A stretch of 54,146 nucleotides of DNA from Nitrospinae bacterium RIFCSPHIGHO2_02_FULL_39_82 (GCA_001804915.1 MHDI01000083.1:1-54146); one strand, 5' to 3'. Counted from the stretch's first letter, positions 187-8,619 are shown. Notes: generated by a model from the letters alone, not told the origin. Made by a program: numbers and translations.

Positions 187-681
187 TTATTCACGAGATA
201 TAACCGCCAATGATATTCCACCGTAACCCGCCTGACCGCAGGTATACATAATCTTCTCGAGAAGGATAAAGGGTATCCCCTTATCCCCCTGAATCATGAC
301 CTCCCCTGTAAATTTAAAAGAGGGGTTATTCTTTGCAATAAACTCCACCTTCTTTGTATTTTCATTTAATGCATCAAGCAGGGGTTTTATGCTATAGTCC
401 TGATTTTCCATAGCATCCTTTGTATCCATAACCTTTACCCCTTCTACTATTATATCTTCACTGGTAATCTGAATATCCAGTTTTCTTGTTGGTGTCTTCT
501 GAGATATAGAAAGCGGCAGGCTGAGTTTTCTGGGATTGGTAACAACAATACCTTCTGCCGAATAGTTAACTAAAAGAAAGAGCAGGATTATGGTAAACAT
601 ATCCATCATTGAGGTAAGTGTCAATGTAGCTTCAGTAAGCCTTGATCTTCTCTTTTTCTTTTTAGATGGTGCAAAGGGCAT
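187..681 (-). CDS. ExbD/TolR-family biopolymer transport protein
   Basis: 164 aa. Basic N-terminus, a single TM (MFTIILLFLLVNY), and a periplasmic domain typical of ExbD/TolR. Lies in a cluster with a second ExbD and a MotA/TolQ/ExbB protein. Confidence 0.72.
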   Translation of the reverse strand: MPFAPSKKKKRRSRLTEATLTLTSMMDMFTIILLFLLVNYSAEGIVVTNPRKLSLPLSISQKTPTRKLDIQITSEDIIVEGVKVMDTKDAMENQDYSIKPLLDALNENTKKVEFIAKNNPSFKFTGEVMIQGDKGIPFILLEKIMYTCGQAGYGGISLAVISRE

Positions 682-751
682 AATTTAACTCACAACTAAC
701 AACCTACAACCTACAACTTATAATTATTGTTGTTAGTTGTTAGTGGTTGGT

Positions 752-1228
752 TTATTTATTCTCGCCGAGTGATATCAGCGGGAAGAGTATCCGTTTGGTT
801 CCCTCTGATGTCTCCCTTGTAGTATCCATTATCTGAACTACCTGATCATAGGGCATCTGCGGGTCAAATAAAAGGATCGCCTCCTCTTCCTTAGGATACT
901 TATCCTTGAGTTTAAACAGTTCCGCTGCAAGCTGCCTTAAATTCAGCTTTCCCTCAATTCGGGGAATAAAAATCCCCTCCCCTATCCCTCCAAGCTCAAT
1001 CCCCTTCTCCATTACCTTTACAATCAGCATCTTTGGAGGAGCAGCCTGATTGCCTCCTCCACCCTCACCCTCCTGCGGCAGATAGGTATCAATAATTGCC
1101 ATCTTTGCAAAGACAGCAGTCAGGAGGAGAAAGGGGATGATAACCATAAATAGATTCATTACAGGGGTCAGGTTGAGATCAGTATCTGAAATAGAATGAT
1201 GCCTTCTCTTACTGGGTCTGTATGCCAC
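752..1228 (-). CDS. ExbD/TolR-family protein (second copy)
   Basis: 158 aa. N-terminal TM (LFMVIIPFLLLTAVF) followed by a Gly-rich linker and an ExbD-like C-terminal domain. Its start overlaps the stop of the ExbB-like gene, suggesting translational coupling. Confidence 0.68.
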   Translation of the reverse strand: MAYRPSKRRHHSISDTDLNLTPVMNLFMVIIPFLLLTAVFAKMAIIDTYLPQEGEGGGGNQAAPPKMLIVKVMEKGIELGGIGEGIFIPRIEGKLNLRQLAAELFKLKDKYPKEEEAILLFDPQMPYDQVVQIMDTTRETSEGTKRILFPLISLGENK

Positions 1229-1847
1229 TCTTCCTCCTATTTAAGAGATTGATAAGTTTTACAGAAAACTCATCTATCTCATCTATTAACCTGTGTGCCT
1301 TTGCCTGAAGGACAGTATACCCGGCAAGCATGGGTATAGCTACAATAAGACCAAAGGCAGTAGTATAAAGGGCTACAGAGATACCATTGGCAAGAAGGGA
1401 TGCCTTCTGTGAAGGGTCTGCAACGCCAACGGCTGCAAAGGCCTGAATCAGTCCCTGTATAGTGCCGAGCAGACCTAAAAGGGTTGCTATATTGGCAAGT
1501 GTGGAGAGGTAAGAAACCCTCTTATCTATTGCAGGTACTATCTCCAGTGCCTTTTCATCTATTGCATTCTGTATCTCCCTATCTAACACATTGGATACTG
1601 AAATGCCAGTATAGAGGATTTTTAAAAGAGGAGAACTGGAATCCTTGCACAGCAGCTTCGCCTTTTCTATATTCCCATCCTCTATAAACTTGCTGACCCT
1701 ATTCCATAGGGCACGGGCATCTACATTATATCTGAAAAGCAAAACAATCCCACGCTCTACCATTATAGCTATTCCGATAACTGCGGTGCCAAGAATAAAA
1801 TACATGAATATCCCACCATCTCTAAAAAAACTTGCCAATGTTTCCAT
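1209..1847 (-). CDS. MotA/TolQ/ExbB proton-channel family protein
   Basis: 212 aa with three predicted TM segments. A conserved C-terminal block (LLGLLGTIQGLIQAF ... ALYTTAFGLIVAIP) is typical of ExbB/TolQ. Confidence 0.75.
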   Translation of the reverse strand: METLASFFRDGGIFMYFILGTAVIGIAIMVERGIVLLFRYNVDARALWNRVSKFIEDGNIEKAKLLCKDSSSPLLKILYTGISVSNVLDREIQNAIDEKALEIVPAIDKRVSYLSTLANIATLLGLLGTIQGLIQAFAAVGVADPSQKASLLANGISVALYTTAFGLIVAIPMLAGYTVLQAKAHRLIDEIDEFSVKLINLLNRRKSGIQTQ

Positions 1848-6104: not shown

Positions 6105-8025
6105 TCTGCATCCTCTTCTTTTCCTTTTCCATCTCTTTCGCTACTGTTTCGAGTGCTGTGGCAATACGCTCTTTAAAACCCCCCGTATTATATTTTACCG
6201 CTAAAAATCTCTCCTTAATATGGTTGTCCAATCTGATAAGGGTCTCATCGAGTCCCATCTCGGTATCCAGAATAATCCTTTGCAGTTCCCCCCTTATCCT
6301 TTCCAGTTCCTTAATAGCCTCATATCCTTTTTTTATCCTCTTTTGAAGCAATGGTTCAATTTTTGATAGAGAGTCTTCAGTTGTTATCTTTTTATCCCCC
6401 CGTATATTGTCTATGTCTTTTCCAATCATCTCTATTATCATTAGCAGCTTCTTTAAATCTTCAGGCTTATTAAATACCTCCATCTTAGCTATTGGGTCTA
6501 TTACATCGATAATCGGACATGTAACAGGTGACCTAAGGCATCTCATCGCCTCTTCTACTTCAAGCAAAATAAGCCTGACCATCTTCTCTTCAGTTTCTGT
6601 AATATGCCGCTTTATTATCTGATTCCAGCGGTTATAAAAAACTTCTTTACCATAATTGAATAATACCTCATTATGTTTTTCCTTCGTAAGACGTGTTTCT
6701 GCCATTTTATTTATAGCAGAGAGGATATTAATTACCCTTTCAATATCCCTTTCAATCTCCTTTGCCATACCTTCCAATCCTTTAATTGTATTCTCTATAT
6801 AGGTCTCCCTTTCCATAAGCTCCTTCTCCTTCACTATAAAACCCGTTCTCATATTATGAAAAAGCTCGTATTCCTCCAGAAGGTTAAAAAGATCTTTATC
6901 ATTATTATCACGCAGTGTGGAAAGATAATACTCCTCTTCCTCTTTGCTTGTAGAAGCCGATAAGATACCTGATTTCTCTGTACCTCTGTGTGGCTTTTTT
7001 CCACTAAGGATTGAGATAAACCGCTCCCTTATCGATTTATCTTCAATCATCCGATCAAGTCTCTCCTCAGTTGCAGTAAAGGTCTTTGAGAGCATCTGAA
7101 AGTGCTCTAACGCTTTCTTAATATTACCCACCTTAAGATAACAATAACCCAGAATTATCTCTGCCTCCTGCTCTATAGAGTCGTATGGAGGAACTGCCTT
7201 TATACCCTCAAGAATAGTTATGGCTACATCATAGGAATCCAGTTTTATCAGACTCCATGCCTGTCCTAATAGGGCATTTCTATAAAAATGACTACTATAT
7301 GGAACCTTTAGAAGCTCATTAATTGCCTCTAAGAAAAGATCCTCCTCAAAAAGCACCTGTCCAAGCATAATATAAACCCTTTCAGATAGCTCTCCTTTTA
7401 CAGAAGGATGAAGCAGGAGTTCCCTCAAAATTGCCTCTGCATTCTCCGGTTTTTGTTTCCTAACCTCTATCTGGGTAATGGCAATCCTGGCATATGGATA
7501 GAATTTATCATCTGGTGAAATCTGTAACAGAGATTGTCTTGCATCCTCCAATCTGTTCAGATGTAAAAGGCTCATCCCTTCAAAATAGTTAATTGCACCC
7601 CTGTTATCAAGCTCCATGCTTAAGAATAATCTCTCATATTCATCCATCTGATAAATGGCATCCAGTAACCTGATTATCTCAGACATATCTTTAGGAAGGG
7701 ATTGAAAGGTAAAGGATGGATAATCACTCCTGTCGTGTAGTCTCTTAATATCTGAAAGTTTAAGAAGGAGAATGACCTTGTCTTTCTCTTTAAAAGGACC
7801 GTTAATGAGGTCGTTAGCTATTATAGATGAAGTGAGATAATCGCCTGTAAAATAAAGATAGAATGCCCTCTGATACTGATATTCTCCCTGTGAGAGTATG
7901 GTCTTCGAAGCGTCCTCTGCAAAGGCAAACTGGGTAGTTAGAAGGAAGAGACAAGAAAACAAGAAGCAAGACATCTTACCTATTGCCCCTTGTCTTTTTC
8001 TTCTAACCTGTAATTTAACATTCAT
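6088..8025 (-). CDS. TPR-repeat secreted protein (645 aa)
   Basis: Signal peptide MSCFLFSCLFLLTTQFAFA. TPR-like repeats in the N-terminal half and a coiled-coil, KE-rich C-terminal half. Confidence 0.62.
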   Translation of the reverse strand: MNVKLQVRRKRQGAIGKMSCFLFSCLFLLTTQFAFAEDASKTILSQGEYQYQRAFYLYFTGDYLTSSIIANDLINGPFKEKDKVILLLKLSDIKRLHDRSDYPSFTFQSLPKDMSEIIRLLDAIYQMDEYERLFLSMELDNRGAINYFEGMSLLHLNRLEDARQSLLQISPDDKFYPYARIAITQIEVRKQKPENAEAILRELLLHPSVKGELSERVYIMLGQVLFEEDLFLEAINELLKVPYSSHFYRNALLGQAWSLIKLDSYDVAITILEGIKAVPPYDSIEQEAEIILGYCYLKVGNIKKALEHFQMLSKTFTATEERLDRMIEDKSIRERFISILSGKKPHRGTEKSGILSASTSKEEEEYYLSTLRDNNDKDLFNLLEEYELFHNMRTGFIVKEKELMERETYIENTIKGLEGMAKEIERDIERVINILSAINKMAETRLTKEKHNEVLFNYGKEVFYNRWNQIIKRHITETEEKMVRLILLEVEEAMRCLRSPVTCPIIDVIDPIAKMEVFNKPEDLKKLLMIIEMIGKDIDNIRGDKKITTEDSLSKIEPLLQKRIKKGYEAIKELERIRGELQRIILDTEMGLDETLIRLDNHIKERFLAVKYNTGGFKERIATALETVAKEMEKEKKRMQNEKGK

Positions 8026-8082
8026 TCAACCCACTCATTATGCTATTGTTTCATTGCCTCTAAAAAGAATACTGCTCATATT

Positions 8083-8619
8083 CTATTGTTTAAAATCAAT
8101 CTGTGATACCTGTAAATCTACCTTACCATCCTTCTTTTCAAAGAAGAACTGAACGAAAGTATCTTTCCCCCATGTTATGTTTACAGAAATTATTTCCTCA
8201 CCCTTGCTGGGCGGTTTATTTCCCTCTACCCAGTAATACACCGCCACCAATCTCCTGTTTCCCTCTCTGACCTCTTTATGGAAAAACTGATGACGTCCAC
8301 CGTTCCACAGTGCCTCATTTTCAAGAGGTGTATAGAAATGGCTCTCGAGGAGTTTGATACCATCAAGTAACTCTATAGAGATCAGCTTTATTTCACTATT
8401 ACGATTTACAACAGATATATTCAGGGTGGTGCTGGGAAAATTCCATATATTCTTTTCCAGCTTCTTTAAGGATTCATCAATAGAGATGTATTCGTTATTT
8501 AATCTGGTAATCAAATCTCTTATAGACTCCTCCCTTTTCTGGGACTCAGCTTTTACAGGGCAGACATTATTTAAGAAAACTATCAGCAGACTTACGGCTA
8601 ATCCTGTTATTATTCTCAT
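8083..8619 (-). CDS. hypothetical secreted/periplasmic protein
   Basis: 178 aa with an N-terminal signal peptide (LAVSLLIVFLNNVCPVKA). First gene of the minus-strand TPR/Exb cluster. No recognisable domain. Confidence 0.45.
   Translation of the reverse strand: MRIITGLAVSLLIVFLNNVCPVKAESQKREESIRDLITRLNNEYISIDESLKKLEKNIWNFPSTTLNISVVNRNSEIKLISIELLDGIKLLESHFYTPLENEALWNGGRHQFFHKEVREGNRRLVAVYYWVEGNKPPSKGEEIISVNITWGKDTFVQFFFEKKDGKVDLQVSQIDFKQ

What the first reader, a model, noticed from the sequence alone, without database searches (positions are those of the whole stretch)
187..8619. ExbB-ExbD-ExbD proton-motor module co-oriented with three large TPR (lipo)proteins; no TonB evident
Eight consecutive minus-strand genes sit in one module: a secreted 178-aa protein, a 645-aa TPR protein, a 963-aa TPR lipoprotein, a 358-aa TPR lipoprotein, a 116-aa ORF, MotA/TolQ/ExbB, ExbD and ExbD. 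No TonB-like Pro-rich or C-terminal-domain protein is present, and neither is an OM receptor or Pal. Two ExbD paralogues plus giant TPR scaffolds recall energised envelope machines other than classic TonB uptake. Examples are Myxococcus Agl-Glt gliding, the Bacteroidetes exbB-exbD-exbD-TPR clusters, and Tol-like systems. The function is open. Candidates are envelope-spanning motor-driven secretion, motility or OM maintenance.
Basis: partly seen in the sequence, partly recalled or inferred. Interest (0 to 1): 0.6.

Follow-up and report, generated by a model that had tools for sequence, protein, structure and literature searches.

The report
Agl–Glt-type core envelope motor operon
This is a conserved nine-gene operon, not eight, for a proton-driven envelope machine related to the ancestral core of the Myxococcus gliding motor; its "missing" TonB-like protein is the ninth gene, cut off by the window edge.

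Summary
The module has nine genes. A GTG at base 194 overlaps the ExbD2 stop and opens a 488-aa gene that runs off the window start.

Identical contigs from Nitrospinae bacterium RIFCSPLOWO2_02_FULL_39_110 supply the rest of it. The protein has:
- a cytoplasmic FHA-like β domain;
- one transmembrane helix;
- a Lys/Glu-rich linker;
- a TonB-like C-terminal domain of the AgmX/PglI (GltG) type.

So "no TonB evident" is a window-edge artefact, but the protein is not a canonical TonB. No TonB-dependent receptor, Pal or TolB is in the window.

Gene content and order match the Agl–Glt "core complex" of Luciano et al. 2011: secreted β-sandwich protein, GltC-like TPR, GltD-like TPR lipoprotein, GltE-like TPR lipoprotein, small secreted protein in the GltF position, TolQ-like channel, two non-equivalent ExbD paralogues, GltG-like transducer.

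The same order recurs in Nitrospinota, Thermodesulfobacteriota and "Deltaproteobacteria", and in near-identical form in a Myxococcales MAG and one metagenome contig. Rearranged or reduced versions occur in Gammaproteobacteria, Calditrichota, Elusimicrobia and Coatesbacteria.

Verdict: a new member, in a new phylum, of a known system whose cellular function is still unknown. Moderate interest.

The parts
8083..8619 (-). g1: secreted 178-aa protein with a signal peptide, one long helix and a transthyretin-like beta sandwich. It is the first gene of the operon.
   Evidence: ORF. No Pfam or NCBIfam family. Present as the first gene in 12 related clusters. The family profile hits the 329-aa protein next to the GltC-like TPR gene of a gammaproteobacterial cluster (2e-12), and only marginally the first gene of the Myxococcales cluster (0.02). 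AF2 model has mean pLDDT 66: helix 33-58 plus 7 strands. Fold matches are generic only: transthyretin, AlgF C-terminal domain, TssJ, fimbrial proteins. 100% identical to A3I04_05005 of Nitrospinae bacterium RIFCSPLOWO2_02_FULL_39_110.
6088..8025 (-). g2: 645-aa secreted TPR plus helical protein, the positional and profile equivalent of GltC.
   Evidence: ORF. Weak TPR hits. The signal peptide ends ...FAFA/ED. The family profile hits the TPR protein in the same position in other clusters: L032 4e-27, Elusimicrobia 1e-32, Coatesbacteria 1e-27, Gammaproteobacteria 4e-18, Myxococcales MAG 1e-12.
3213..6104 (-). g3: 963-aa TPR lipoprotein, GltD-like central periplasmic scaffold.
   Evidence: Pfam TPR families and YfiO. 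TIGR02795 YbgF-type TPR modules, three stretches, 122.7 bits. Lipobox Cys47 invariant. Colinear BLASTP match to the 1032-aa TPR of the gammaproteobacterial cluster (883 aa, 1e-54). Profile hits of 1.7e-93 to the Myxococcales MAG 1326-aa TPR and 5e-86 to the L032 1189-aa TPR. Family members occur in many phyla.
2165..3241 (-). g4: 358-aa TPR lipoprotein, GltE-like.
   Evidence: Strong TPR hits. NCBIfam gliding_GltE matches only weakly (24.8 bits, cut-off 225). The lipobox LSGC is conserved in orthologues. Profile hits to the TPR gene in the same position: Myxococcales MAG 8e-16, Gammaproteobacteria 4e-14. Fused to g3 in L014 and L015.
1863..2213 (-). g5: small secreted protein in the GltF position. 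Its likely start is the ATG at 2168, giving 101 aa. Conserved motif: E-R-x-I-K-I-E-G-x-x-E-K-P-R-V-I-F-I-V-P-R.
   Evidence: ORF. The NCBI record aa (L006). No curated family; the Rotavirus_VP2 hit is below cut-off and spurious. An exhaustive HMMER search found 47 cluster representatives, almost all 70-120 aa. Motif. The family profile hits the small gene in the same position in the L032 contig (1e-9), Myxococcales MAG (1e-7), Calditrichota (2e-7) and Coatesbacteria (7e-5) clusters.
1209..1847 (-). g6: AglR-like proton channel of the MotA/TolQ/ExbB family.
   Evidence: PF01618, 96 bits. Below every equivalog cut-off: TolQ 75.6 of 221, ExbB 37.9 of 206. Closest solved structures are TolQ (1.7e-11), then ExbB (7.5e-8). 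40-45% identical to the channel of the Myxococcales, L032 and gammaproteobacterial clusters. The LGT and TTAFGL transmembrane motifs are conserved.
752..1228 (-). g7: first ExbD/TolR paralogue (in the position of one of the two AglQ/AglS subunits). It has Asn where ExbD/TolR carry the essential transmembrane Asp.
   Evidence: PF02472, 54.6 bits. The profile hits only the first ExbD of other clusters strongly (gamma 3e-37, against 8e-9 for the second). The motif M-N-L-F is conserved in 15 of 16 close orthologues, and in the gamma and Myxococcales clusters. No match to solved ExbD or TolR at E<=1.
187..681 (-). g8: second ExbD/TolR paralogue (in the position of the other AglQ/AglS subunit), with a strictly conserved transmembrane Asp.
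   Evidence: PF02472, 51.3 bits. The profile hits only the second ExbD of other clusters (gamma 8e-38, Myxococcales 6e-24). The motif M-M-D-M-F has an invariant Asp in all 20 sequences aligned.
1..194 (-). g9, first 64 codons only: GltG-like TonB-family transducer of 488 aa, cut by the window start.
   Evidence: GTG at 194 overlaps the ExbD2 stop (GTGAATAA). The translation is 100% identical to residues 1-64 of P0001. The full gene is on identical contigs L001 and L006. NCBIfam NF033768 AgmX/PglI C-terminal domain scores 68.6 bits (cut-off 40). NF033760 gliding_GltG gives 9.5e-30. TonB_C is sub-threshold. AF2 shows a beta domain at 1-121, a transmembrane helix at 142-167, a disordered linker and an alpha-beta-beta-alpha-beta C-terminal domain at 392-481. 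Foldseek matches TonB C-terminal domains and FHA domains.
3089..3214 (-). Copy 1 of a ~125-nt hairpin-forming repeat at the g3/g4 junction. It is read in frame into the N-terminus of g4.
   Evidence: RNA fold z = -6.6.
5980..6101 (-). Copy 2 of the same repeat at the g2/g3 junction. It is read in frame into the N-terminus of g3.
   Evidence: 85-90% identical to copy 1. RNA fold z = -3.9.
8640..8760 (-). Diverged third copy of the repeat, upstream of g1 in the putative leader or promoter region.
   Evidence: 61% identity in register. RNA fold z = -2.5. Weak.

Best explanation
Window 1-8619 (minus strand) is a nine-gene operon of an uncultured groundwater Nitrospinota bacterium. It encodes a stand-alone Agl-Glt "core complex". 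This is the Tol/Ton-like, proton-motive-force-driven envelope machine from which the Myxococcus gliding (Agl-Glt) and spore-coat (Agl-Nfs) machines are thought to have evolved.

Proposed mechanism:
1. A TolQ-like channel (g6), presumably a pentamer, surrounds a heterodimer of two non-equivalent ExbD/TolR paralogues. g8 carries the protonatable Asp. g7 carries Asn.
2. Proton flow drives a conformational or rotary cycle.
3. The cycle is passed to the GltG-like transducer (g9). Its FHA-like domain and transmembrane helix sit against the channel. Its long Lys/Glu-rich linker and TonB-like C-terminal domain reach into the periplasm.
4. There the linker and C-terminal domain dock on a TPR scaffold: GltD-like lipoprotein g3, GltE-like lipoprotein g4 and GltC-like g2.
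5. The small secreted g5, in the GltF position, supplies a beta strand that pairs with the TonB-like domain in the manner of a TonB box.
6. g1 is a secreted beta-sandwich accessory protein.

The output is mechanical work on an outer-membrane or periplasmic partner, not TonB-dependent nutrient import. The most likely role is a basal transport or tethering function for a surface component.

Shown here: gene set, domain architectures, orthology to other core clusters, conserved synteny. Inferred from Myxococcus work: stoichiometry, contacts, force transmission. Unknown: the cargo.
For: **The ninth gene is a GltG-type transducer**
- It passes NF033768, the AgmX/PglI C-terminal domain model (68.6 bits, cut-off 40).
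- It hits the gliding_GltG model at 9.5e-30.
- The AF2 model shows a beta domain, a transmembrane helix, a disordered linker and a TonB-like C-terminal domain.
- Its best PDB matches are TonB C-terminal domains (7zc8, 5lw8, 2gsk, 1u07) and FHA domains (4h87, 6l9w, 3hx1, 6ccd).
- Myxococcus xanthus GltG has the same kinds of domains in the same order, though it carries two FHA domains (PMC3169522 Table 1; PMC11761067).

**Gene content matches the published core complex**

**Gene-by-gene orthology to other clusters of this type**
- Ketobacteraceae cluster: g3 1e-54 over 883 aa; g6 2e-58; g7 to ExbD1 6e-21; g8 to ExbD2 2e-23; g9 8e-15; g2 1e-9; g1 1e-5.
- Myxococcales MAG cluster lying directly downstream of mglB-mglA. 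Profile E-values: g3 2e-93, g6 8e-61, g9 2e-32, g5 1e-7.

**Conserved synteny**
- The nine-gene order is conserved in Nitrospinota, "Deltaproteobacteria", Thermodesulfobacteriota and Desulfuromonadales MAGs.
- Rearranged or reduced forms occur in Calditrichota, Elusimicrobia and Coatesbacteria.
- Flanking genes differ everywhere, so the cluster behaves as a self-contained unit.

**The two ExbD paralogues are anciently distinct**
- Asn versus Asp at the transmembrane position is conserved across phyla.
- This fits the AglQ/AglS heterodimer model of PMC11761067.

**No partners of the rival systems**
- No TonB-dependent receptor, TolB or Pal is in the window.
Against: - No M. xanthus GltC, GltD, GltE, AglR, AglQ or AglS sequence could be fetched. 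Homology to the Myxococcus proteins is therefore indirect, via NCBIfam models and a Myxococcales MAG cluster.
- g9 scores far below the GltG equivalog cut-off (103.7 vs 650). It has one FHA-like domain, detectable only by fold, where GltG has two.
- g4 hits the GltE model only weakly (24.8 vs 225).
- Both AglQ and AglS are reported to keep the transmembrane Asp (PMC9389320). Here the first paralogue has Asn.
- No outer-membrane beta-barrel partner or adhesin is encoded in the cluster, so the output end of the machine is unidentified.
- The contacts (g9 with g3, g5 with the g9 C-terminal domain, g6 with g9) are extrapolated from AlphaFold models of the Myxococcus proteins. They were not computed here.
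- The organism is an uncultured MAG. There is no expression or phenotype data.
Confidence: 0.8

Rival explanations
1. An ordinary TonB-ExbB-ExbD nutrient-uptake energiser that happens to carry accessory TPR proteins. g9 would be the TonB, and its receptors would be encoded elsewhere in the genome.
For: - g9 has a TonB-like C-terminal fold and sub-threshold TonB_C and tonB_Cterm hits.
- Some orthologues are annotated "energy transducer TonB" or "TonB family protein".
- ExbB/ExbD Pfam domains are present.
- Receptors need not be adjacent.
Against: - The C-terminal domain passes the AgmX/PglI model, not the TonB models.
- A cytoplasmic FHA-like domain is not a TonB feature.
- g6 is nearer TolQ than ExbB and fails the ExbB equivalogs.
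- Two anciently distinct ExbD paralogues, three TPR proteins and two small secreted proteins are co-conserved in fixed order across phyla.
- No TonB-dependent receptor appears next to any of about 20 clusters inspected.
Confidence: 0.05
2. A second, divergent Tol-Pal-like system acting in outer-membrane tethering or invagination at division. g3 would be a giant CpoB/YbgF analogue and g9 the TolA analogue.
For: - g6's best solved relatives are TolQ.
- g3 contains three YbgF-type TPR modules (TIGR02795, 122.7 bits).
- JGI names some orthologues "TolA-binding protein".
- Lipoprotein scaffolds could anchor to the outer membrane.
- This is compatible with the core having a housekeeping envelope role.
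Against: - TolQ, TolR and TolA equivalog scores are far below cut-off (75.6 of 221; 20 of 127; 12.4 of 59).
- No TolB or Pal is in the window or in any related cluster.
- The g9 C-terminal domain matches TonB C-terminal domains better than TolA domain III (TolA only at E~0.3).
- The cluster is patchily distributed, unlike Tol-Pal.
Confidence: 0.08
3. A complete surface-gliding (or directed surface-polymer transport) machine like Myxococcus Agl-Glt or Agl-Nfs. The outer-membrane and cytoplasmic modules would be encoded elsewhere in this Nitrospinota genome.
For: - The core parts are the same as the Myxococcus motor.
- A Myxococcales MAG has the same nine-gene cluster directly after mglB-mglA.
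- Polysaccharide-export genes (Poly_export, Wzz) lie near two distant clusters.
- A Wsp/Frz-like chemosensory cluster lies 2.4 kb away in the window.
Against: - Luciano et al. showed the core genes are not sufficient for gliding, and that most core-carrying bacteria are not known to glide.
- No GltA/B/H/K-like barrel, CglB, GltI, GltJ, MglA or AglZ is in the window.
- The neighbouring chemosensory genes are not conserved next to the cluster in a related strain (L005).
Confidence: 0.07

Closest known systems
Agl-Glt "core complex" (Group B genes gltC, gltD, gltE, gltG, aglR, aglQ, aglS plus one extra gene; Luciano et al. 2011, PMC3169522; Wartel et al. 2013, PMC3858216)
   Same: - A TolQ-like channel, two TolR/ExbD paralogues, a GltG-type TonB-like transducer and three periplasmic TPR proteins of matching sizes, all in one co-oriented cluster.
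- Gene-by-gene similarity to a gammaproteobacterial cluster and a Myxococcales MAG cluster of this type.
- Function unknown.
   Different: - Found in Nitrospinota, with related forms in several phyla not listed in 2011.
- The GltC-like gene and its small partner lie upstream rather than downstream as in the gammaproteobacterial form.
- A conserved small gene in the GltF position (g5) and a secreted beta-sandwich protein (g1) belong to the unit, giving nine genes.
- The first ExbD paralogue has Asn instead of the transmembrane Asp.
Myxococcus xanthus Agl-Glt gliding machine and Agl-Nfs spore-coat machine
   Same: - Motor logic of AglR, AglQ/AglS and GltG.
- GltG-type domain order: an FHA domain next to the transmembrane helix, then a linker and a TonB-like C-terminal domain.
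- A GltD/GltE/GltC TPR scaffold.
- A small secreted protein after gltE.
   Different: - Lacks the outer-membrane module (GltA, GltB, GltH, GltK, CglB), the cytoplasmic module (GltI, GltJ, AglZ, MglA) and a second FHA domain.
- g9 is 488 aa against 640 aa and fails the GltG equivalog cut-off.
- All genes lie in one operon instead of three loci.
TonB-ExbB-ExbD energy-transduction system
   Same: - A MotA/ExbB-family channel and ExbD-family subunits.
- A bitopic transducer with a charged linker and a TonB-like C-terminal fold.
- A beta-strand ligand is likely.
   Different: - No TonB-dependent receptor.
- The C-terminal domain is sub-threshold for TonB models.
- A cytoplasmic FHA-like domain.
- A heteromeric ExbD pair.
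- Dedicated TPR lipoprotein scaffold.
Tol-Pal system with CpoB/YbgF
   Same: - A TolQ-like channel (the closest solved structures).
- YbgF-type TPR modules that, by analogy, bind the transducer.
- A probable envelope-spanning, force-transmitting role.
   Different: - No TolB or Pal.
- All Tol equivalog scores are far below cut-off.
- The transducer has a TonB-type rather than a TolA domain III-type C-terminus.

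Membership tests
Agl-Glt core complex (Luciano et al. 2011) | AglR: a MotA/TolQ/ExbB-family proton channel encoded in the cluster | tested here: met
   PF01618, 96 bits. TolQ is the closest solved structure. 40-45% identical to the channel of the Myxococcales and gammaproteobacterial clusters.
Agl-Glt core complex (Luciano et al. 2011) | Two distinct adjacent TolR/ExbD paralogues (AglQ and AglS) | tested here: met
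   Two PF02472 proteins. Each matches only its positional counterpart in other clusters. They differ at the transmembrane position, Asn versus Asp.
Agl-Glt core complex (Luciano et al. 2011) | GltG: a bitopic protein with a cytoplasmic FHA domain, a transmembrane helix and a TonB-like C-terminal domain | tested here: met
   NF033768 scores 68.6, above the cut-off of 40; NF033760 gives 9.5e-30. AF2 architecture. Foldseek hits to TonB C-terminal domains and FHA domains. The FHA domain is seen by fold only, not by Pfam.
Agl-Glt core complex (Luciano et al. 2011) | GltD-like large exported TPR protein | tested here: met
   Colinear match to the 1032-aa TPR of the gamma cluster (1e-54). Profile hit to the Myxococcales MAG 1326-aa TPR (1.7e-93). 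M. xanthus GltD itself was not compared.
Agl-Glt core complex (Luciano et al. 2011) | GltE-like TPR lipoprotein | tested here: inconclusive
   NF033758 gliding_GltE scores 24.8 bits against a cut-off of 225. The positional counterpart matches at 8e-16 (Myxococcales) and 4e-14 (gamma). The lipobox is conserved. TPR similarity is hard to separate from true orthology.
Agl-Glt core complex (Luciano et al. 2011) | GltC-like exported TPR protein | tested here: inconclusive
   Profile hits to TPR proteins in the same position (1e-12 to 1e-32). No M. xanthus GltC sequence or model was available.
Agl-Glt core complex (Luciano et al. 2011) | All components clustered in one region or operon | tested here: met
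   Nine co-oriented genes with overlaps or gaps of 70 nt or less. Order is conserved in more than 12 contigs.
Agl-Glt core complex (Luciano et al. 2011) | Sequences fall in the monophyletic Agl/Glt clade together with the M. xanthus proteins | not tested
   No M. xanthus sequences could be retrieved. The genome-contig scan used too specific a pattern.
Complete Myxococcus-type gliding machinery (Agl-Glt) | Group A genes (gltA, gltB, gltH, gltK, gltI, gltJ) and cglB are present | tested here: not met
   None is in the cluster, or in the 30 further window ORFs of 100 aa or more that were scanned. The rest of the genome cannot be tested with these tools.
Complete Myxococcus-type gliding machinery (Agl-Glt) | GltG equivalog score (NF033760, 650 bits or more) | tested here: not met
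   103.7 bits.
TonB-ExbB-ExbD uptake system | Canonical TonB C-terminal domain above curated cut-offs | tested here: not met
   PF03544 scores 18.3 against 24.6. TIGR01352 scores 24.6 against 27.1.
TonB-ExbB-ExbD uptake system | ExbB and ExbD equivalogs | tested here: not met
   TIGR02797 scores 37.9 against 206. No ExbD equivalog hit.
TonB-ExbB-ExbD uptake system | A cognate TonB-dependent outer-membrane receptor | tested here: not met
   None in the window and none next to any related cluster inspected. Genome-wide presence is not testable.
Tol-Pal system | TolQ, TolR and TolA equivalogs plus TolB and Pal | tested here: not met
   TolQ 75.6 of 221; TolR 20 of 127; TolA 12.4 of 59. No TolB or Pal in the window. 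Only YbgF-type TPR modules are present in g3 (122.7 bits, summed over three stretches).

The most novel reading that the evidence does not exclude
The nine-gene unit may be a third, ancient and widely distributed class of Ton/Tol-type force-transducing systems, alongside Ton and Tol-Pal. It would carry its own dedicated ligand, the small g5 protein, acting as a soluble TonB-box-like strand for the GltG-type C-terminal domain. Its stator axle would be obligatorily asymmetric, with one Asp subunit and one Asn subunit. It would perform a non-motility housekeeping job, such as moving or tethering a surface polymer or outer-membrane lipoprotein scaffold, in at least eight phyla. Gliding in Myxococcota would be a late elaboration of it.
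Probability: 0.3. Interest if true: 0.6.

Novelty: new member of a known kind. Interest (0 to 1): 0.38.

Why it matters
The function of the Agl-Glt core complex outside gliding bacteria has been open since 2011. This locus shows three things.
- The core exists as a compact, strictly syntenic nine-gene operon in Nitrospinota and related groundwater lineages.
- Two unannotated small secreted proteins belong to the unit. One sits in the GltF position and is detectable from Myxococcota to Calditrichota.
- The two ExbD paralogues are consistently asymmetric (Asn versus Asp).

These are concrete handles for structure prediction and genetics in any cultivable organism that carries only the core.

For genome annotation, these "TonB / ExbB / ExbD / TPR" genes should not be read as an iron-uptake system.

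Tried and rejected
- **Curated families for the 178-aa and 116-aa proteins.** Pfam and NCBIfam at E up to 10 gave nothing. The Rotavirus_VP2 hit (19.5 bits, cut-off 27) and the HTH_27 hit are noise. Neither protein is a hidden TonB C-terminal domain, TolA or GltG.
- **Reaching Myxococcus genomes.** The genome-contig scan with the gene 9 alignment used one very specific peptide pattern. It returned only close relatives, so no M. xanthus loci were obtained.
- **Contexts of distant FHA + TonB-like hits.** P0084 and P0085 sit next to a TPR gene plus a protease or a kinase, not in glt-like clusters. They were not useful.
- **AFDB search.** The afdb50 library was unavailable.
- **Guilt by association.** Flanks differ in every genome:
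  - a NiFe hydrogenase here;
  - ATP synthase in Calditrichota;
  - mglBA in one Myxococcales MAG;
  - Poly_export or Wzz near two clusters.
  No conserved neighbour emerged.
- **Promoter and terminator scan.** Terminator-like sites are at chance level and promoter-like sites only modestly above it (41 vs 28.8 ± 4.9); no site could be assigned a role.
- **Solved relatives of the two ExbD paralogues.** Nothing significant was found.

Full report
**1. Observation**

Pfam gives MotA_ExbB for 1847..1209 and ExbD for both 1228..752 and 681..187. It gives many TPR families for the 358-aa and 963-aa proteins and weak TPR hits for the 645-aa protein. It gives nothing real for the 178-aa and 116-aa ORFs.

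The genes overlap or lie 70 nt or less apart:
- g1/g2: gap of 57 nt
- g2/g3: overlap of 17 nt
- g3/g4: overlap of 29 nt
- g4/g5: overlap of 49 nt, or 4 nt from the internal ATG
- g5/g6: gap of 15 nt
- g6/g7: overlap of 20 nt
- g7/g8: gap of 70 nt

The lipoprotein calls are sound. Cys47 of the 963-aa protein is invariant in 12 orthologues. The L-[STA]-G-C lipobox of the 358-aa protein is conserved. The 178-aa, 645-aa and 116-aa proteins have ordinary signal peptides.

**2. The missing piece**

Looking up the exact ExbD2 protein returned contigs that are 100% identical to the window over bases 1-700. One is MHDJ01000078.1 of GCA_001804945.1. One search names the organism as Nitrospinae bacterium RIFCSPLOWO2_02_FULL_39_110.

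All of these contigs carry a ninth co-oriented gene of 485-497 aa that overlaps the ExbD2 stop. In the window it starts at GTG 194 (GTGAATAA) and runs off base 1. The 64 codons present are identical to the full-length protein P0001.

Beyond this gene lies a convergent NiFe-hydrogenase operon. The module therefore ends with gene 9.

**3. What gene 9 is**

Sequence models give four results:
- NF033768, "AgmX/PglI C-terminal domain", scores 68.6 bits and passes its cut-off of 40.
- NF033760, "adventurous gliding motility protein GltG", gives E = 9.5e-30 at 103.7 bits. This is far below the 650-bit equivalog cut-off.
- TIGR01352 tonB_Cterm scores 24.6 against 27.1.
- Pfam TonB_C scores 18.3 against 24.6.

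Homologues in Nitrospinae and Deltaproteobacteria MAGs are annotated "AgmX/PglI C-terminal domain-containing protein", "energy transducer TonB" or "TonB family protein".

An AF2 model was built from 36 homologues. It shows:
- an all-beta domain at residues 1-121 (pLDDT about 87);
- a transmembrane helix at 142-167;
- a low-confidence Lys/Glu-rich linker;
- an alpha-beta-beta-alpha-beta domain at 392-481 (pLDDT about 90).

Foldseek against the PDB returns TonB C-terminal domains (FusB 7zc8, H. pylori TonB 5lw8 and 6sly, E. coli TonB 2gsk and 1u07, HasB). It also returns FHA domains (kanadaptin 4h87, TIFA 6l9w, Slr1951 3hx1, Rv1747 6ccd). E-values are 4e-3 to 3e-2 at probability about 1.

This follows the M. 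xanthus GltG (PglI) plan: FHA, transmembrane helix, linker, TonB-like C-terminal domain (PMC3169522 Table 1). PMC11761067 adds a second GltG FHA domain placed next to the transmembrane helix, which is predicted to contact AglR. g9 has only this single FHA-like domain.

**4. What the module is**

Luciano et al. 2011 defined an Agl-Glt "core complex". [quoted passage not shown] These genes are clustered in a single region in Gammaproteobacteria, one betaproteobacterium, Geobacter and Fibrobacter. The function was unknown, and the set was not sufficient for gliding. Wartel et al. 2013 call it a possible "basal transport machinery".

The window's gene set maps onto it one to one:

| Window gene | Description | Core-complex counterpart |
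|---|---|---|
| g2 | 645-aa exported TPR | GltC |
| g3 | 963-aa TPR lipoprotein | GltD |
| g4 | 358-aa TPR lipoprotein | GltE |
| g5 | small secreted protein | GltF position |
| g6 | proton channel | AglR |
| g7, g8 | two ExbD paralogues | AglQ and AglS |
| g9 | transducer | GltG |
| g1 | extra secreted protein | none assigned |

I tested this against real clusters.

*Ketobacteraceae (Gammaproteobacteria) cluster.* It was found through a g9 homologue and has this order: TPR1032, TPR283, small103, ExbB, ExbD, ExbD, GltG-like310, thioredoxin, 329 aa, TPR724. BLASTP results:
- g3 to TPR1032: 1e-54 over 883 colinear residues
- g6 to ExbB: 2e-58
- g7 to ExbD1: 6e-21 (against 0.07 to ExbD2)
- g8 to ExbD2: 2e-23
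- g9 to GltG-like310: 8e-15
- g2 to TPR724: 1e-9
- g1 to the 329-aa protein: 1e-5

*Myxococcales MAG cluster.* A profile search with the g3 family led to PBLQ01000011. There the same nine-gene order follows directly after mglB (Robl_LC7) and mglA (an Arf-like GTPase). Family HMMs built from the Nitrospinota and "Deltaproteobacteria" orthologues hit its proteins position by position:
- g3: 1.7e-93
- g6: 8e-61
- g7: 1e-23, to its first ExbD; the second is not hit at E ≤ 1
- g8: 6e-24, to its second ExbD; the first is not hit at E ≤ 1
- g9: 2e-32
- g4: 8e-16
- g2: 1e-12
- g5: 1e-7

**5. Conservation**

The nine-gene order is identical in four Nitrospinota MAGs. It is also identical in "Deltaproteobacteria", Thermodesulfobacteriota and Desulfuromonadales MAGs, down to 30-40% protein identity. 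In two of them g3 and g4 are fused.

Near-identical forms occur in the Myxococcales MAG and one metagenome contig (L032). Reduced or rearranged forms occur in three more phyla:
- Calditrichota;
- Elusimicrobia;
- Coatesbacteria, where a second TonB-like gene with a GYF domain resembles GltJ.

Flanking genes differ everywhere, so the cluster is a self-contained unit. Polysaccharide-export genes (Poly_export, Wzz) are near two clusters and mglBA near one. This is suggestive but not consistent.

**6. The small ORFs**

*g5.* It is real. Exhaustive HMMER found 47 family representatives, almost all 70-120 aa. They share a signal peptide and the motif E-R-x-I-K-I-E-G-x-x-E-K-P-R-V-I-F-I-V-P-R, followed by a short helix-like K-S-F-x-x-D-I-L-x-P segment.

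The g5 family profile detects the small gene in the same position in four other clusters: L032, Myxococcales, Calditrichota and Coatesbacteria.

In Myxococcus, the small protein encoded after gltE is GltF. Its beta strand is predicted to pair with the GltG C-terminal domain, and its C-terminal helix to bind GltC. It has been likened to a TonB box (PMC9389320). g5 has the matching layout of strand followed by helix. I infer the same role, but homology to M. xanthus GltF was not tested.

*g1.* It is a secreted protein with a helix and a beta sandwich. Its clear relative is the 329-aa protein next to the GltC-like gene in the gamma cluster (2e-12).

Neither small protein is TonB-like, TolA-like or GltG-like.

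**7. Motor details**

The first ExbD paralogue carries Asn where ExbD and TolR have the essential transmembrane Asp. The motif is M-N-L-F. It is found in 15 of 16 close orthologues and in the gamma and Myxococcales clusters.

The second paralogue has an invariant Asp in M-M-D-M-F.

The channel keeps the L-G-T and T-T-A-F-G-L transmembrane motifs. From my own knowledge, these correspond to the conserved Thr residues of ExbB and TolQ. Its closest solved relatives are TolQ, then ExbB.

This fits a heteromeric axle, as proposed for AglQ/AglS. It differs from M. xanthus, where both subunits are reported to keep the Asp.

**8. Mechanism**

Shown here: parts, architectures, orthology and synteny.

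Inferred from the Myxococcus literature:
- an AglR-like pentamer around a g7/g8 heterodimer converts proton flow into movement;
- the FHA-like domain and transmembrane helix of g9 ride on the channel;
- the g9 linker and C-terminal domain dock on the g3 scaffold, which is bound by g4 and g2;
- g5 bridges by strand pairing.

Unknown: the output partner and the cargo. I commit to a basal, non-uptake, force-transducing transport or tethering role (confidence 0.8 for identity and general mechanism).

Rivals:
- Classic TonB uptake: 0.05.
- A Tol-Pal-like paralogue: 0.08.
- Full gliding or surface-polymer transport with parts encoded elsewhere: 0.07.

**9. Novelty and score**

This is a new member of a known kind. 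The modest additions are:
- a new phylum (Nitrospinota) and a wider distribution than reported in 2011;
- a fixed nine-gene unit that includes a widely conserved protein in the GltF position and a secreted beta-sandwich protein;
- the conserved Asn/Asp asymmetry of the ExbD pair.

The organism is uncultured, so the open question of what the core does is not made directly testable here. Interest: 0.38.

Noticed in passing
window 3089-3214, 5980-6101, and weakly 8640-8760 (minus strand): A ~125-nt repeat occurs only inside this operon: at the g3/g4 junction, at the g2/g3 junction, and in a diverged copy upstream of g1. It contains the inverted repeat TTAGCCACAGA...TCTGTGGCTAA about 65 nt apart and folds into a long-range hairpin (z = -6.6, -3.9, -2.5). 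It is read in frame into the unusually long N-termini of both lipoproteins ("KIFSHRLSxTxIFFxNF...LSVxxCVxLWL"). No alternative start codon lies downstream of it, so it appears to encode part of their signal peptides. A similar peptide appears at the g4 N-terminus of the Nitrospinota relatives L009 and L010.
   Followed up: partly
window 10993-20542 (minus strand): A Wsp/Frz-like chemosensory operon: CheR with TPR (18977-20542), two CheW (18516-18980, 17894-18544), an MCP (16324-17907), a CheA-CheW-REC hybrid (13605-16298), CheB (12532-13608) and a REC-GGDEF response regulator (10993-12450). It lies 2.4 kb from the Glt-like operon. It is not next to the operon in a related strain (L005).
   Followed up: partly
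window 8887-10922 (plus strand), divergent from g1: A 100-aa ORF with a CxxC motif. Next to it is a 439-aa secreted protein with one CxxCH haem motif (CNVCH) and a C-terminal ...QFMF typical of outer-membrane beta-barrels; it has no Pfam family. A 114-aa c-type cytochrome follows. This may be a haem-bearing outer-membrane protein.
   Followed up: no
window 30596-32236 (plus strand): A single 546-aa ORF fuses prephenate dehydrogenase (PDH_N and PDH_C) to cytidylate kinase, directly upstream of rpsA (S1). It is either an unusual TyrA-Cmk fusion or a missed stop or frameshift.
   Followed up: no
window 44410-45258 (minus strand): A 282-aa protein with an IS200-like Y1 transposase domain in residues 12-120 only. 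It is longer than typical IS200 TnpA and could be a domesticated or REP-associated tyrosine transposase.
   Followed up: no
L031 5117-6211 (Myxococcales MAG PBLQ01000011.1): In this marine Myxococcales MAG, mglB (Robl_LC7) and mglA (an Arf-like GTPase) lie immediately upstream of, and co-oriented with, the same nine-gene core cluster. This is a physical link between the polarity GTPase module and the core machine.
   Followed up: partly
L035 17293-18669, 1501-2166, 18805-20670; L032 21616-22293: The Coatesbacteria cluster has a second TonB-like gene with a GYF_2 domain, which resembles GltJ. It is flanked by Poly_export and Wzz genes. The L032 cluster also has a Poly_export gene nearby. This is a possible link to surface-polysaccharide export, as in Agl-Nfs.
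   Followed up: no
window 50103-52767 (plus strand): A NapC/NirT-type tetrahaem cytochrome, a multihaem cytochrome (Multi-haem_cyto, c554-like) and an FGE-sulfatase-family protein lie in a row. An ammonium transporter (48694-50037) and tRNA-Leu(TAA) (48317-48405) are upstream.
   Followed up: no
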